DNA of 64,000 nt. It comes from Eledone cirrhosa. Taxonomy: Eukaryota. This document shows, piece by piece, positions 23,221 to 56,612 of this stretch. Under the pieces are notes generated by a model, which was given only the letters and a program-made list of their open reading frames with translations, was not told the origin of the DNA and searched no databases. The DNA is taken from contig OZ024743.1 of NCBI GenBank assembly GCA_964016885.1, forward strand, positions 162,626,001 through 162,690,000. Direction: 5' to 3'. The position numbers and the translations under genes were made by a program. The number at the start of each line of letters is the position of its first letter. The stretch's first letter is position 1.

Positions 23221-24218
23221 ATTCGTTTTTGAATTCATTTTGCGAGATTTCTTATCTGAAAACATGTGTTGAAACAGATATTATTATACTTTGGGAGGGT
23301 CATGTTACCAATAAAAACACACGCACCTGTTGGTTTTCACTTATTATTAATTTATTATAAATTTCCAGTTGGTTGGTTGATTCGATAACTGGAAGGTTTT
23401 TATATATTGTCAAAGTTCTTTCGTCACACATTCTGTGACCTCCTCACTGACTAGGTTTTTATTTTTGTGTCTCTCCTTTGTTCTGTCCTACACCACCTTG
23501 TTTTTGTGTGTTGTGTGCCTAGATGCGTTACATCTGGGTGTGTGTGTGTGTTTTTATTTATTTATTTATATGTTTATTTATTTGTCACTAGTTGATTGTT
23601 TGTTCTATCTCTGTGTGTCTGATTTGTTTTGTTAGTTTGGTTTTTGTGTGTGTCTGTATGTCTTCATTTTGTCCTTAATTACTAGTTGTGATGTTGCTAT
23701 TCCACACATGTTTAATTTTACTTGGAGTTCGTTTATGTTTGTTGCCTCTGTGATTTGTCTGAGCATTGCATCTTTTTTGTGTGTGGATATAATTTTTATC
23801 TCCGTTCTCTAATGTGCCCCTATGTTCTATTTTAGCATGTTGGGGGAGTACTGGAGTTCTCGCCAGTGTTCAGTTATCCATTCTCCTATACTACGGGCTG
23901 TTTCACCTATGTATGTTATATTCTTATTCCTACACTGTCCCTCAGTACATTTTATGCTATGTACTACATTCCTAGTTTTGCAGTTAATTTGTGGGCTTAG
24001 CTTGCAGACTATGCATTTCCTATCACTATCTCTGATTGTAGCCAAAGAACTGAATGCAGTGGATGAAGTGTTGTATGTGTCTCTCCAATTCTTTGGGGTT
24101 GTACATGCGGGACACGTACAACCAACCAACCGGAAATTTATAATAAATTGAAGTGAAAACCAACTGGTGCGTATGTTTTTATTGGCAACATGAGTATACC
24201 TCCCAAAGTATAACAATA
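23221..24218 (-). mobile_element. PLE 3' fragment (GIY-YIG plus 3' UTR) with an inverted terminal piece
   Basis: NCKTRNVVHSIKC...YIGETARSIGE. Homologous to ~55370-56128. 24119-24218 is an inverted copy of ~23280-23380. Confidence 0.85.
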
Positions 24219-24241
24219 TATATATATATATTGTTATATAT

Positions 24242-40070: not shown

Positions 40071-41057
40071 AGATCTGAATATACCTAAAGTATATTATTC
40101 ACTATCAACATGAACTTGGAAGGCATGATGACAAAAATTTCTCACTTTACGTTTTATTAGAAATAGTAGCCAAGAATGAAAGAAAGTTCATGGAAGAAGA
40201 GGAGTCGCATTTTTTGTTTGTTTTCTTTTGTAATGTTTATTTTGTTTTTGGTTTGTTTTAGTTTTTCTGTTATTTTTAGAGAGGGGTTCTGAAGCGTAAA
40301 TGTTTGTTAAAAACGTATAATTCCAGAAAAGAATTAACAGAGAAAAAAATAAAACATTATGGCCATTTACGTGGTGGTGCTTCTTCCAAAACTCCACTGT
40401 GTGTGTGTGTTTAATATAGAAATGGCTTCTACAGGACTAGAACTGTTTCATTCCAAGGGAATCATCCTTGAGTACCTTACTTCCTGTGGCTATCCCCGAT
40501 TGAACCCGGGATACACACACACACATGTATAATAAATATATATATACATATATAATATACATATATATATATAATATATATATTATATATATATATATAA
40601 TATATTGATATAAATATATATATAATATATATATATATAAATACATATAATATATATATATATATAAATGGAGGCTAACCACATGGCTTAGTGGTTAGAG
40701 CATTGGTCTTGCAATCGAAAGGTTGTGAGTTCAATTCTCAGACCAGGTGATGTGTTGTTTCCTTGAGCAAGACACTTTATTTCACATTGTTCCAGTTTAC
40801 TCAGCTGTAGAAATGAGATGCTAGGGACTGGGGTCCCTGTCATTTCATTGCAAAGTGGTCGTGGAGGTGCCACGGCAAAAAAGTACCCAGCACTCACTGT
40901 AAATGAGGTTGGTGTTAGGAAGGGCATCCAACTGTAGAAATCAAGCCAGAATCAGTTCCCATCCCACCCTTGCAAGCAGGGAAAAAGCGGATGTAAAACG
41001 AAATGATGATGATGAATGAAATGATGATAAATACATATATAATATATATATATATAA

Positions 41058-51094: not shown

Positions 51095-52901
51095 CTAGGG
51101 CAGTTAAAATTCCCGAGATCCATGGACGAGTTCTCTCCAGCAGTCTCTGTCCCTCATTATCGCTGCCATGTCCTGCATCTCCAACAGACCAGTCTGTCCT
51201 TAGGGCATCAACATACATTAACCTTGGTCTTCCTCTTCCAGTGTGTCCATGTAGGGGCTCCCACAGGAGCACTGAGTGCAATGACAACTCTGGATGTCAG
51301 TGAGCATGTCCAGCTAACCTCAGTCTCCTCTGTGTCACTTTTGAGATCACTTTTGGGAGGCTCCCATACAGCTCTGAGTTTTTCATCCTCAATGTATACT
51401 GATTAATGTTCAGAGCCATCCTCAGCATTCTCGTGTAGCACCCATCCACCATCTGAGTGAGTTTCTTGGTCAGTGTCCAAGTCTCAGACCCGTACAGCAG
51501 CACAGACTCCACTACAGCAATGAAGAGGCGGATTTTCAGGTCTTTACGAAGGTCCGACTTCCACACCGATCTCAAGCTGTGGCACGCCGCCCAGGCTTTG
51601 CTCTTCCTCTCAACCACATCATCTTCCATATTCCCAATCTTTGCTCCCAAATACAGGAAGCCCTCAACCAATTCTAGCGGCTTCCCGCCTACATTAGTGA
51701 TCCCCTCTGGCTTCTCAACATTCTCTACCAGATATTTTGTTTTAGTCTCATTCATTCTCAGCCCCACACTCATTGACACAGTCTCAACCTCCCGCATCAA
51801 ATCCTCTGCCTCCTTCACTGTATTTGTCAGCAAATTCAGCGCCTGATACCTTTTTCGCCTTAACTCTCCTGCTCTGAGCCGGTGCTACCGTAAAGCCAGA
51901 GTCCTGGTGTTTCTCCAGTGCAAGGCACATACAATAGTCCACTACGATGATAAAAAGGTAGGGAGTCAATGTATCTCCCTGGAGCACTCCAGCCAGTATC
52001 TCAAAAAACTCTGTCATCCCACCAGGTGTAATGACTTGGGCTTTGGTGTTGGTGTAGAGCAGTGATATCAGGTCCACTATCTTCTTGGGGATTCCATAAG
52101 CATGTAAGATCTTCATCAGGCAGTGACAGTCCACAGAATCAAAGGCCTTCCTAAAGTCAATGAAAACCATGACCACAGGAAGGCACTTTGCTCTAGCTCC
52201 CTCTAATATCCTCCTCAGCATCAGGATGTGACTGGTGGTTGATCTTCCCTCTCTGAAGCCGTTCTTCTCCATCTCAGGCTGGATCCTGTTAAGAATCATT
52301 CTGTTGAGGGTCTTTGCCACAAGTGACGTCAGTGAGATCCCCCTGTAGTTGTTGGTGTTAGAGAGATCTCCCTTCTTTGGCACTGGGACAATGTTACTGA
52401 TCCTCCCTGATTCGGGGCAACTCCTTTCTCCAGTGCCCAGTTACAGAACCCCAGGATATCAAAATCACACCTCTTCATCACCTCTGATGCCACTCCATCT
52501 TCTCCATGAGCCTTGCCCTCCTTGATCCTCTTCTTGGCTCTCTGAAGCTCCTCTCTGGTGAAAGGCTCTGTGTCAATATCCAGTTCCTCAAACAGCCGCC
52601 TGATCTCCCCAGTGCTTTGGGCTGTGGAGGGTGGCTCTCCTAGTAGGGTCCTAAAATGGTCTAGCCATTTCCTCTTCCTATCCTCGGGCCCCGTTCCCTG
52701 AATCTGACTCGAACACCTTCTCTTCCTCCGTGATCTCGTTGATGATCATCCAGCTCTCCTTACATCCAGACCTGTCAACCGCTCTCTCCACACTTCTGAT
52801 CTTCTCTATCAGTGCCTCCTCTCTGGCCTCAGTGTAAGCGGTACAGAGTTCTTCCCTCATCACCTCCACAGTCTCCATCCTCTCCTCCGTAGGATCAGCA
52901 T
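51095..52901 (-). mobile_element. RTE-clade LINE, family without PHD, 5'-truncated
   Basis: ORFs 51784..52383 and 51297..51833: PKKGDLS..NYRGISL, FIDFRKAFDSV, GVLQGDTL, FLYLG, LYGSETW. Confidence 0.92.
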
Positions 52902-53197
52902 CATATATAATATATATATACATATATAATATACATATACATATCATCATCATCATCATCATCGTTTAACGTCTATGTTCCACGCTTGCATGGGTTTGGA
53001 CGGGAGTTTTCCCACTTGAGGCAAGAGTGGTTGTCTTGCTCGCATAGGACTGTCTGGCGGGTTTTCTACGGCTGGATGCCTTTCCTAACACCAACCACAT
53101 TTACAGTGTGGGGCTGGGAGGTTTTTACCGTGTTGCCTACACGGCCACATTACAGCGTGGACTATCTGGCGGGTTTTCTACAGCTGGATGCCTTTCC

Positions 53198-53233
<36 letters not shown>

Positions 53234-53299
53234 CGGGCAGCATGTATATTAGCTTTCTCTCTATCCATGAGGTTATATGTGTCGTGAACAGTGTCCACA

Positions 53300-53376
53300 T
53301 TTGCTGACTGAGGATCCTGTGGCCTGTTATACTGCACATATCAGTGGTGAAACGAAGCGAGATTCGTATCAGCAAA
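53300..53376 (+). ncRNA. Type I hammerhead ribozyme, best-formed copy
   Basis: tttgctga-CTGAGGA(53308-14)-stem II-GAAA(53349-52)-cgaa/ttcg-TA-tcagcaaa. Perfect 8-bp stem I, 4-bp stem III, GUA cleavage triplet. Confidence 0.82.
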
Positions 53377-53554
53377 CTTATAGTTATAAGGTTGGTAATT
53401 TAAAACTCTAATTCAGAGATTTGATTCTGACTTAGTTTTTTTTCTATTTAATTGCTAAACCTGTAGATATTGTTCTCTATACAGTAACGGTAAAACTCAC
53501 TTGTAATAACTCTACACACATCTCCTTGTGTAACACACTTCTCTTTGTGTAATA

Positions 53555-53625
<71 letters not shown>

Positions 53626-53663
53626 ATATTAATAAATGGAAACTATATTTATAAAACCATATT

Positions 53664-53729
53664 TATTTTATTCTATATATTTCAAGGGCAACCAAGGCAA
53701 ATTATGGTGCACTTTCATCAGATAAAATA
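53664..53729 (-). ncRNA. Type I hammerhead motif (same family as ~6335 and ~50560)
   Basis: Minus strand: tattttat-CTGATGA-aagtgcacc...ggttgccctt-GAAA-tata-TA-gaataaaata. Confidence 0.65.
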
Positions 53730-53863
53730 CAGATTTGTTTTATAAATAAATATTGACATACCCGGAAAAAAGACAACCTTAACGGTTGGAGCTTCCTGAT
53801 AGCTTTATATCAGTTATAAAAATGTTTAAGCTTGTTGAATCCCAACAAATTAAATATAACCTC

Positions 53864-53918
<55 letters not shown>

Positions 53919-54505
53919 GGATACTATTTATAGTTATGTGTATTTTAAACTATAAACAGAGAAGGTCAGTAATTTATTACTACCTTATTACCAGTAAGAT
54001 AAACAGCTCAATGTAAGATCATCAGTTGTTCAACAGAGCAGTTATATAAAATTCACAAGAATCAAAGCTATGTTCAAAACATTTATTATCTTACAATTGT
54101 TTCTTCCGAACCTAGGCTTGGAGTCTTCGGAGCAATTTTTAATGTTTGTACATACAATTGACCTCCTACTCAACTCAAGAGACGTACAGATACATATATA
54201 TATTGATGTACAGTGTGGAGCGACATATATTATACTATACTATATTTGTATAGTAACTCAAATTAAAATCAAAATTAAAATACATGCGACAGATAACACA
54301 GATAATGCAGGAGAATAGTTCAATAATCAGATCTAGTAGACAGTGTATGCGTTAGTCATACATGGAGCATGCAAATGTGTCTCATTTATATTGTATGGCA
54401 AGGTATTACATGTAATACAAGCACTTTATATATATATATATATATACATTTCGTTTCTGAATTTGTTTAGCAAGATTCTTTATCTGAAAACGTGTGTTGA
54501 AACCG

Positions 54506-55755
54506 TTGGTGTTAGCATTGCAGGCGACATAGCTAACTTATTCATGGGATGGTGGGACAGTAGACTTAAACTTAAACTTAAAGAACAATTAGAAGACTCC
54601 TTAACCCTGATAATGTACTCCCGCTACGTTGATGATATAAACATTGTAGTTAAAACACCCCCACTAGAGAACAGTCAGGAATTAGAGAAAAACACAATGG
54701 AAAGCATCCAGCAAATAGCTAACTCTATCCACCAGAGTATTAGAGTTACTATAGACTACCCAAGCAAACACCCCAACCATCGATTACCTGTACTAGACAC
54801 AGAGCTCTGGTTAGAAACCATTAATAACAAAAAACAAATCCTCCATTCCCATTATGCCAAACCCATGACTTCCAAATATCTGATCCACCGAAACTCAGCT
54901 GTTTCGGATCACACCAAAATCAACATACTGATTGCGGATTTAGTACGGGTGATGAGAAATGTGTCCCGCATGTGCAACTCCAAAGAACTAGAGAGATACA
55001 TACAACACTTCATCCACCGTATGCAGTTCTCTGGTTACAATCAGAGAGATAAAATCAGAGTGTATAGAGGAGCCAGAATCAAATGGGAAAAAATGGTAAA
55101 TAATGACACAAATGGAACCTGCCCCTTGTATAGGAGCAAATTTTGGAATAGAATAGAAAGAACTAGGAATAAGACTAATAGAATAAACTCATGGTATGAT
55201 AGCAATAAATACCAGAGTGTAATGTTCATCGATACAACCCCTAGAGGTGAATTAGCTTACAAATTTAGAAGGGCCCTAGATAAACATAGACTCAATATTA
55301 AGATAGTAGAAAGACCAGGTACCTCCATAAAAACATTTATTAGCAAGACATACCCTTTTCAAAGACCCCCCTGTATAGATAAGAAATGTATAACCTGTAA
55401 ATTAAGCCCCCATATTAACTGTAAAACTAGAAATGTAGTATATAGCATAAGATGTACTGAAGGACAATGTAGAGACAAAAATATAATGTACATAGGTGAG
55501 ACAGCTCGTAGTGTAGGGGAACGGATAAATGAACACTGGCGAGACCTTCAAGATAGTAAAGAATCATCTGTACTCTACCAACATGCTAAAATAGAACATA
55601 AGGGTAAATTAGAGAACATAGAAATAAAAATAGAATCTACACACAGAAAAGATGCAATGTTTAGACAAATCACAGAGGCAATAAACATAAAAGAATTACA
55701 ACCAAAATTAAATAGAAAATATGAGTGGAACAGCAACATCACAACTTACAATTAA
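54506..55755 (+). CDS. PLE RT C-terminal half plus Cys-rich linker and GIY-YIG endonuclease (uninterrupted frame, ~415 aa, 5'-truncated)
   Basis: GVSIAGDIANLFM, YSRYVDDI, LPVLDT, PCIDKKCITC, NVVYSIRC...YIGETARSVGERINEH, RQITEAINI...PKLN. Confidence 0.9.
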
Positions 55756-55933
55756 GGACAAAATGAAAACACACGTACATAGAACAAACAACCAACCTGT
55801 AACATGTAAATAAACAAATAAATAAACGAATATAAACACACACAGACACCCGGATGTGGCGCATGTGCAGACTGAGCTCACAACACACACAGAAACAAGA
55901 TGGCGTAGGACAGAACAAAGAAAAGAATCCCCA

Positions 55934-55976
55934 GTCACTGAAGAGGTCACAGAATGTGTGACGAAAGAACTTTGAC
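55934..55976 (+). ncRNA. Minimal type I hammerhead in the PLE 3' UTR
   Basis: gtca-CTGAAGA-g-gtcac agaatgt gtgac-GAAA-gaac-TT-tgac. The copy at ~23409-23451 (-) has a mutated core (GTGAGGA). Confidence 0.78.
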
Positions 55977-56612
55977 AATATATAAACAACCATCTGGTTG
56001 TGGAACCAACCAACCAACCGGAAATTTATAAATTCCTAAATTTATAAATTTATTATAATAAATTGAAGTGAAGCAACTGGTGCGTGTATTTCTTATTGGC
56101 AACATGACCCTCCCAAAGTATAACAATATACATATATATATATATAATATATATATGTATAATATATATATACATATAATATATATATACATATATAATA
56201 TATGTGTGCGTGCGTGCGTGCTATGTTCTTAATCTTAATAACAATATACTGTACCTAATATTGTACCTAAATAAAATCTTGAATAAATAATGCTCTGCAA
56301 AATACGGCTTTTAGCCTGTATAAAGCATATCTGAGCTGATTTATGGTATACGATTGAAATAAAATTTATTTTAATCGACTTTTATATATATATAAATCGA
56401 AAATGCAACTGGAGTCCTTTTAAGAATATTTATTTGTTTCCCTTTGAAACCGGTAAAAGAAACAAATAAATATTCTTCAAAATGGCTCCAGTTTCATTTT
56501 CGATTTCTTTTCCGACCGGACTAGAAACTGCTAAATGTTTGGCCGCCTTCTTGTCTCTCTGCCTTTTCAGCCCCATGGATTGTGTCTATTATATTCCTTT
56601 GTTAAATTTCGA

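What the first reader, a model, noticed from the sequence alone, without database searches (positions are those of the whole stretch)
53235..53545. Well-formed hammerhead in a short ORF-less unit between (TA)n tracts: retrozyme-like candidate
53300-53376 has an 8-bp stem I, an intact CUGAGGA/GAAA core, a real 4-bp stem III with loop, and a GUA site, so it could cleave as a monomer. The ~300-bp unit shows no recognisable coding remnant and has no homologue elsewhere in the window. Its size fits animal non-LTR retrozyme monomers (inference).
Basis: partly seen in the sequence, partly recalled or inferred. Interest (0 to 1): 0.75.

Follow-up and report, generated by a model that had tools for sequence, protein, structure and literature searches.

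The report
Truncated Penelope-inserted retrozyme, knotted hammerhead
This is a cut-short copy of a 550-letter, protein-free repeat with hundreds of copies in this animal genome; it carries a predicted self-cutting RNA, and its insertions have the paired fixed ends of Penelope-type jumping genes, whose enzyme likely copies it.

Summary
The hammerhead motif is there (stem I 8 bp, CUGAGGA/GAAA core, stem III 4 bp, GUA at 53366-53368). It is not 'well-formed' throughout: stem II is two C-G pairs behind a U·U mismatch, and Rfam does not detect it.

The 311-bp 'unit' is not a monomer. It is positions 123-449 of a 550-nt, ORF-less, head-to-tail family with hundreds of genome copies. Insertions are 5'-truncated, end at two fixed sites about 100 nt apart, and abut (TA)n. 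Double-ended insertions pair one end of each type (57 of 57; 15 of 16 in a second set), the Penelope 'tail' signature. Tandem units in one locus share rare variants 44-fold above background, which fits a circular or uniform multimeric RNA template.

Across subfamilies, 0 of 40 essential ribozyme sites vary, against 27 of 81 neighbours. A covarying helix joins the 5' flank to loop II; it is either a pseudoknot or a lock.

No autonomous parent was found. Cleavage, circles and the helper are unshown. Damaged ribozymes were also copied. This scan has noted the same anatomy in other families of this and other genomes.

The parts
53198..53233 (.). (TA)n tract at the truncated 5' side of the insertion
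53235..53559 (+). 5'-truncated, single-ended copy (monomer positions q123-q449) of a 550-nt non-coding family; 8 differences from the family majority in 315 sites, none in the ribozyme's essential positions
53277..53299 (+). 5' tail (q165-187), predicted to pair with loop II (53318-53339) in three short helices; covaries between subfamilies
53300..53376 (+). Type I hammerhead motif: stem I 53300-07/53369-76, core 53308-14 and 53349-52, stem II U·U plus 2 C-G (53315-17/53346-48), loop II 53318-45, stem III 53353-56/53363-66, predicted cut after 53368
53552..53559 (+). Fixed 3' end 'A' (q447-453), an AU-rich site that merges with the (TA)n target; inferred reverse-transcription start
53552..53629 (.). 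(TA)n target tract at the 3' end
54430..56130 (+). Neighbour, not part of the element: 5'-truncated Penelope-like element (RT end, CxxxxCxxC linker, GIY-YIG; frame ends 55752) with its own minimal hammerhead at about 55934-55976, an 'A' end at about 56125 and an inverted 'B' tail at 54430-54514; internal control for the anatomy and a candidate helper

Best explanation
This is a 5'-truncated copy of a 550-nt non-coding repeat family with a hammerhead motif, whose insertions sit in (TA)n with the paired offset ends of Penelope-like elements, so it is likely a retrozyme copied by a borrowed Penelope reverse transcriptase, probably from a circular RNA. Steps: (1, inferred) a locus with two ribozymes is transcribed, both cut after q256, and the 550-nt piece is ligated to a circle. 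(2, inferred from Frangieh 2024 and the ends) a PLE enzyme nicks both strands of a (TA)n tract; one strand primes at site A (q447-453) and the other at site B (q550), both AU-rich. (3, pattern shown, cause inferred) each cDNA runs 5'-ward for a random length, often through the unit junction and the cut site, and the two arms are joined head to head. (4, shown) the window's copy is a one-armed product from site A that stopped at q123; it is a dead end whose ribozyme could only cut a read-through transcript. (5, predicted) the weak stem II is supported by a pseudoknot between the 5' tail and loop II.
For: Family: 46 matches from the 40 scored of 1134 candidates; exact patterns give 128, 139, 355, 453 and 565 hits, reversed controls 0. 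Closed unit: 57 of 117 loci run contiguously over 560 nt, 13 cross the cut site twice, longest 1246 nt (loci were chosen by ribozyme or dimer likeness, so biased to long). Ends: 169 of 188 3' ends fall at A or B, followed by (TA)4 in 79 of 85 and 82 of 84; 57 of 57 double-ended A/B-class insertions pair A with B, Fisher p 8e-17; in 36 loci chosen by 3' patterns, 15 A/B, 1 A/A, 0 B/B. The autonomous PLE next door has the same anatomy with its own roughly 55-nt tail. One template per locus: direct tandem units differ at 43 of 660 subfamily sites, inverted arms at 69 of 796, unrelated copies at 35%; rare variants are shared at 21 of 10575 direct sites, 27 of 13180 inverted sites and 4.5e-5 between loci. 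Selection: 0 of 40 essential sites polymorphic against 27 of 81 nearby (p 4e-6) and 54 of 498 overall (p 0.025); core intact in 110 of 131 copies; N7 and loop III vary. U10.1·U11.1 and 2-bp stems II occur in natural hammerheads, and about 40% use a stem I-II pseudoknot (PMC3088659, passages). Tail helix: two-sided changes at q183:210 (CG 60, TA 38), q176:215 (AT 78, TA 26) and q186:207 (CG 112, TA 3) of 122 copies.
Against: No RNA, cleavage or circle data. No Rfam hammerhead hit. With its 5' flank, the window copy's nested fold is a hairpin that hides stem I (-35.4 against -17.2 kcal/mol for the constrained hammerhead without the knot). Damaged ribozymes were copied: both units of L088 share a G8 core change and both arms of L129 share an A6 change; variants shared within a locus hit essential sites (6 of 1057) as often as other non-polymorphic sites (95 of 16017). 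Uniform linear multimers or early gene conversion would also give shared variants. In vitro, a PLE used uncleaved RNA and did not need its hammerhead (PMC11167929). 5' ends do not pile up at the cut site, which fits circles and uncleaved RNA equally. No A>G editing excess (A>G 133 of 19243 against T>C 231 of 25983). The tail covariation rests on few events, and 20 of 122 copies have C·A at q183:210. The helper is not identified and the neighbour PLE shares no homology.
Confidence: 0.62

Rival explanations
1. Same non-autonomous PLE-mobilised family, but the template is an uncleaved linear transcript of tandem genomic copies, with template jumps to regain length. The ribozyme cuts slowly or only sets transcript ends, and the tail helix is a lock that keeps it off; circles are not needed.
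For: Core-damaged templates were inserted (L088, L129) and essential sites are not depleted among variants shared within a locus. The flank hairpin dominates the nested fold. The whole tail-loop helix (about 22 nt) is hard to fit with stem II closed by a 6-nt linker (inference). PAc uses unprocessed RNA in vitro (PMC11167929). 8 of 9 predicted Xenopus retrozyme dimers did not cleave (bioRxiv 10.64898/2026.07.22.740005).
Against: Only 8 of 117 loci hold two ribozymes in tandem, and linear copying can only shorten a source, yet several subfamilies persisted. Direct units share rare variants at the same rate as inverted arms (0.20% each), with little extra divergence (3.7% against 3.2%). The ribozyme is conserved across subfamilies.
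Confidence: 0.28
2. The stretch is the pseudo-LTR or 3' UTR of an autonomous Penelope-like element whose ORF-bearing copies were not sampled.
For: The insertion anatomy is that of PLE ends. One locus (L104/L202) joins a 3-kb PLE ORF and part of its 3' UTR seamlessly to q212 of the unit. Only 153 of perhaps a thousand loci were examined.
Against: Long copies run from q1 back into q550, not into an ORF. Of 153 loci, 6 have a same-strand PLE ORF within 1.5 kb upstream; 3 have a (TA)n tract between, L129 abuts a 3' end, L026 looks like a tail-to-tail deletion (by eye), and only L104 is a 5' join. That PLE family has its own unrelated pLTR and hammerhead. No ORF in the unit.
Confidence: 0.06
3. A DNA-level satellite or MITE-like repeat, spread by recombination or slippage at (TA)n, in which the hammerhead is a chance or dead motif.
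For: Rfam is blank, there is no editing signal of an RNA stage, and (TA)n tracts hold many nested repeats.
Against: Fixed paired 3' ends with random 5' ends, a 3'-biased copy depth, dispersal over many chromosomes, and an invariant ribozyme amid variable flanks.
Confidence: 0.04

Closest known systems
Metazoan non-LTR retrozymes (Cervera and de la Pena 2020, PMC7229834; Li, Clavereau and Pollet 2026, bioRxiv 10.64898/2026.07.22.740005)
   Same: Non-coding, low-GC (36%) head-to-tail unit with one type I hammerhead per unit. 550 nt lies within the 51-972 bp range of Li et al. Monomers and dimers are dispersed. Co-exists with abundant PLEs.
   Different: No long arrays seen (at most 2.3 units). 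No homology to a PLE pLTR found. The ribozyme has U·U at 10.1-11.1, a 28-nt loop II and a covarying tail helix. The helper class is indicated here by insertion ends, whereas those papers argue from co-occurrence and pLTR homology. Circles and cleavage are shown there for some families, not here.
EN+ Penelope-like elements and their 'tail' (Craig et al. 2021, PMC8557442; Frangieh et al. 2024, PMC11167929; Arkhipova et al. 2013, PMC3846280)
   Same: 5' truncation, partial tandems, an inverted 5'-truncated copy, an extension present on only one end that equals the distance between two RT start sites, microsatellite or AT-rich targets, and a hammerhead.
   Different: No ORF. The tail is about 100 nt rather than 30-40. 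The start sites carry a TATA-like microhomology to the target, whereas PAc starts at a non-homologous AC-rich loop. The ribozyme has a full stem III rather than the minimal form of the neighbouring PLE.
Non-autonomous Chlamys PLEs such as MRC1 (PMC8557442)
   Same: ORF-less elements with pLTRs and head-to-tail insertions.
   Different: Those generally share 3'-end sequence with an autonomous family, which was not found here; the paper says most Chlamys lack canonical hammerheads.
Pseudoknotted type I hammerheads with minimal stem II (Perreault et al. 2011, PMC3088659)
   Same: [quoted passage not shown]
   Different: The pseudoknots in the passages read are 4-6 bp. Here the pairing potential covers about 16 bp in three segments and may instead compete with the active fold.

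Membership tests
Type I hammerhead ribozyme | Core CUGANGA, GAAA, NUH with stems I and III | tested here: met
   (core positions 116-124 of 124; stem I 116-124 and stem III 120-124 of 124 paired)
Type I hammerhead ribozyme | Stem II opening with a Watson-Crick 10.1-11.1 pair | tested here: not met
   U·U in 105 of 124, paired in 8; two C-G pairs follow in 121 of 124; U·U is a reported natural, tolerated variant (PMC3088659)
Type I hammerhead ribozyme | [quoted passage not shown] | tested here: inconclusive
   Covarying tail-loop II helix; knot or lock cannot be told apart by nested folding
Type I hammerhead ribozyme | Match to an Rfam hammerhead model | tested here: not met
Type I hammerhead ribozyme | Self-cleavage at the predicted site | not testable with these tools
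   needs an assay; lineage-level conservation is indirect support
Metazoan non-LTR retrozyme | Non-coding unit with a type I hammerhead in each unit | tested here: met
Metazoan non-LTR retrozyme | [quoted passage not shown] 'active' criterion) | tested here: met
   Family level: 8 of 117 loci have two in tandem, 5 with both cores intact. The window's own copy has one and fails this.
Metazoan non-LTR retrozyme | Expressed as linear and circular unit-length RNA | not testable with these tools
   no RNA holder listed
Non-autonomous Penelope-like element | 5' truncation, partial tandem, inverted upstream arm, one-sided tail | tested here: met
Non-autonomous Penelope-like element | Sequence shared with an autonomous PLE family | tested here: inconclusive
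   none with the one family checked in full; other PLE families of the genome were not surveyed; one seamless join (L104)
Autonomous PLE (pLTR or 3' UTR of) | RT plus GIY-YIG ORF continuous with the repeat in long copies | tested here: not met
   1 of 153 loci with a 5' join; long copies loop back into the unit

The most novel reading that the evidence does not exclude
A retrozyme circle is copied directly by a two-headed Penelope enzyme, primed from both strands of a (TA)n cut at two fixed RNA sites. Its hammerhead is switched by its own 5' flank: a roughly 22-nt tail that pairs along loop II, acting as a partial pseudoknot that activates a near-absent stem II or as a full helix that locks the ribozyme so the RNA survives to be copied.
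Probability: 0.25. Interest if true: 0.75.

Novelty: new member of a known kind. Interest (0 to 1): 0.47.

Why it matters
The papers read propose, but do not show, that Penelope-like enzymes mobilise animal retrozymes through circular RNA. Here the ends and shared variants of more than a hundred insertions give a genomic footprint of that route and name exact priming sites (q447-453, q550) and a cut site for a bench test. Cervera and de la Pena note that most animal retrozyme circles lack a self-pairing block of the ribozyme and that the block is unexplained; the covarying tail-loop II helix is a testable candidate, or else an unusually long hammerhead pseudoknot. The locus itself is an ordinary dead copy, and the scan has noted the same insertion anatomy in several other families.

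Tried and rejected
Rfam at gathering score and at E<=10: no hammerhead. Pfam on the neighbouring PLE frame: 0 families; its identity rests on motifs read by eye (recalled: YVDD, GIY-YIG) and on its pLTR-ORF-pLTR copies. RNA runs: no RNA holder listed. Contigs of two runs of unknown type, one sample, cover the unit with 3'-biased depth; they may be the genome's own sample and say nothing on expression. An apparent depth step at the cut site was tested with pattern counts (355 spanning the site against 453 just downstream) and with 5' ends in 30 loci: no barrier; the step reflects subfamily differences in the ribozyme. An apparent pile-up of 5' ends at q1 is a BLAST edge effect (the q526-550 bin is empty). 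A-to-I editing signal: none. Alternative stem II extension q206-209/q223-226: no two-sided change, and broken by the q207 change in the subfamily that keeps the tail pair. The neighbour PLE as parent: no homology; as helper it stays open. The stem I, stem III and H17 rows are invalid (the pattern mis-parsed 6-nt loops); one search gives those counts. The first PK rows were one position out of register and were redone. The sigma-70 scan is irrelevant to an animal genome. Look-up of earlier findings by sequence gave nothing. Relatives' genomes are not held, so other species were not tested.

Full report
Observation. A descriptor tuned to this motif finds it once in the window and in 0 of 300 shuffles. 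Stem II was left out of the description and is the weak part: U·U, C-G, C-G, then 28 nt of loop. Rfam finds no hammerhead at the gathering score in the window or at E<=10 in 52900-54000. The 88-nt fold has z -2.2 and keeps stem I but not the three-way junction.

The unit is a fragment. The window lies in a 3.0-Gb genome, where the stretch has 46 matches among the 40 scored of 1134 candidates, 94-100% identical. Flanks show a 550-nt monomer (L007:1379-1928, 'q' numbering) joined head to tail; the window holds q123-449. The cut site is after q256. Exact patterns give 128 (stem III), 139 (core, longer subfamilies only), 355 (across the cut site), 453 (q286-307) and 565 (near q550) hits, with reversed controls 0. 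About a thousand insertions is an inference from these. The circular unit has no stop-free frame above 64 codons and is 36% GC.

Insertion anatomy. 155 loci reduced to 117 unique ones, chosen by ribozyme or dimer likeness and so biased to long copies. 57 run contiguously for more than 560 nt, 13 cross the cut site twice, the longest is 1246 nt, and 71 have an inverted arm joined at the 5' end. 5' ends are scattered. Of 188 3' ends, 85 fall at site A (q440-458) and 84 at site B (q540-550), followed by (TA)4 within 20 nt in 79 and 82 cases. Where both arms end at A or B, they are always one of each: 26 A-B, 31 B-A, none alike (p 8e-17); 14 further double-ended loci have an end elsewhere. In 36 more loci chosen by 3' patterns: 15 A/B, 1 A/A, 0 B/B, 9 with an end elsewhere, 11 single-armed. 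Both sites read TATA(C/T)TT-like inside the unit, a microhomology to the target. Craig et al. (PMC8557442, passages) describe 5' truncation, partial tandems, an inverted copy, a one-sided 30-40 bp tail and (TA)n bias for PLEs. Frangieh et al. (PMC11167929, parts 1-2 of 4) show that the tail is the stretch between two RT start sites and that both DNA strands are cut and extended. The autonomous PLE family next door (54430-56130; 43463 first-look candidates, frames up to 1257 codons) has the same A end, a roughly 55-nt B tail and (TA)n flanks, an internal control.

Template. Units that follow each other in one locus differ at 43 of 660 subfamily sites, inverted arms at 69 of 796, unrelated pieces at 35%. 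Rare variants (seen in at most 2 loci) are shared at 21 of 10575 direct sites, 27 of 13180 inverted sites and 4.5e-5 between loci. So each insertion comes from one sequence read more than once. A circle explains this simply; a uniform multimer or early gene conversion does too. Against an obligatory self-cut circle: both units of L088 carry a G8 change, both arms of L129 an A6 change, and shared variants hit essential sites (6 of 1057) as often as other non-polymorphic sites (95 of 16017). There is no A>G excess and no barrier at the cut site.

Ribozyme under selection. None of 40 essential positions is polymorphic at 12% or more, against 27 of 81 neighbours (p 4e-6) and 54 of 498 in the rest of the unit (p 0.025). 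N7 and loop III vary; position 10.1-11.1 is U·U, A-U, A·G or A·C, never G-C; an older subfamily swaps the outer stem I pair from U-A to C-G (5 copies). Perreault et al. (PMC3088659, passages) report natural 2-bp stems II, a U10.1·U11.1 start, and pseudoknots between stems I and II in about 40% of hammerheads.

The tail helix. The 23 nt before stem I (53277-53299) can pair with loop II (53318-53339) in three segments. In 122 copies (a few duplicates remain), q183:210 is CG 60, TA 38, CA 20; q176:215 is AT 78, TA 26; q186:207 is CG 112, TA 3; q165-169 with q223-227 pair in 107-117 with almost no variation. Own tail-loop pairs fold better than shuffled partners (-17.4 against -16.3 +/- 0.17 kcal/mol, 0 of 200), but relatedness inflates this and the changes are few events on the tree. 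As a plain hairpin this helix hides stem I in the window copy (-35.4 against -17.2); in the full circle the nested fold keeps stem I and drops the tail helix (2 of 2 monomers). The folding program cannot model a knot. The inner 10 pairs could be an activating pseudoknot; the whole helix is hard to fit with a closed stem II across a 6-nt linker and could be a lock (inference).

Parent and helper. Long copies loop back into the unit, not into an ORF. Of 153 loci, 6 have a same-strand PLE ORF within 1.5 kb upstream; only L104/L202 is a seamless 5' join, 3 kb of the neighbour family's ORF and 150 nt of its 3' UTR to q212. It may be a template switch or a later deletion; no paired far end was found. 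The neighbour family has its own minimal hammerhead and no homology to the unit. It is abundant, about as diverged as the unit and targets (TA)n, so it is a candidate helper only. Its CxxxxCxxC linker suggests the Neptune or Nematis type (motif from PMC8557442; no tree made).

Comparison. It works like a metazoan non-LTR retrozyme (PMC7229834: passages and part 4 of 6) and meets the sequence criteria at family level; RNA circles and cleavage are untested. Li et al. (bioRxiv 10.64898/2026.07.22.740005, parts 1-3 of 5) link retrozymes to PLEs by co-occurrence and pLTR homology, report units of 51-972 bp, found cleavage in 1 of 9 dimers, and leave the mechanism open; their supplements were not seen. 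Five paper searches listed no paper that, by title, abstract start or the parts read, shows the paired-end signature for a retrozyme or describes this family; subscription journals and repeat databases were not searched. PMC3846280 was read as passages.

Earlier notes. My reading was set down before the first look-up. The scan has noted the same anatomy in other families here and in other genomes; these are unchecked AI notes and not support. One such family was fetched and is unrelated in sequence, and their editing signal is absent here. Those notes call the animal a cephalopod; I did not verify this.

Verdict. A real but truncated copy of a new family of a known kind. My odds: non-autonomous, PLE-mobilised family about 0.9; ribozyme active in some context about 0.7; circle as main template about 0.6. 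Interest 0.47.

Noticed in passing
window 54430-56130: 5'-truncated Penelope-like element with an inverted B tail at its 5' end, an A end at its 3' end and a minimal hammerhead (about 55934-55976) whose cut triplet differs from the family's; the family has tens of thousands of first-look candidates and near-intact 1170-1260-codon frames (L199-L201) with N/T-rich low-complexity inserts.
   Followed up: partly
window 23222-24220: A second, more distant PLE end (72-77% to the L200 family), also with an inverted piece.
   Followed up: no
L104 / L202:4230-7986: Seamless join of a 3-kb PLE ORF plus part of its 3' UTR to the retrozyme at q212: template switch or deletion.
   Followed up: partly
L007:1442-1502 (q64-124), absent from the window copy: A stretch with CCAAT and CACGTG motifs and no subfamily polymorphism between q77 and q124; a possible promoter upstream of the ribozyme. 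Untested.
   Followed up: no
L132, L163, L171, L209 (q417-423): A minor third 3' end near q422, at another UGUA site, sometimes followed by (TA)n.
   Followed up: no
L110, L209: Two arms whose 5' ends fall at q256, the predicted cut site; too few to exceed chance.
   Followed up: partly
window 52963-53197: Short dispersed repeat with 25 matches in the window, directly upstream of the (TA)n tract, next to RTE-like RT fragments on the minus strand (51297-52900).
   Followed up: no
window 53630-53866 and 53916-54425: Two further dispersed repeats nested between (TA)n tracts (matches in 25 and 17 fetched loci).
   Followed up: no
window 40684-40741: Partial tRNA-like Rfam match (30.5 bits) just after a (TA)n tract, probably a SINE head.
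   Followed up: no
L198:1030-1845: An unrelated 549-nt hammerhead repeat family of the same genome, also between (TA)n tracts.
   Followed up: partly
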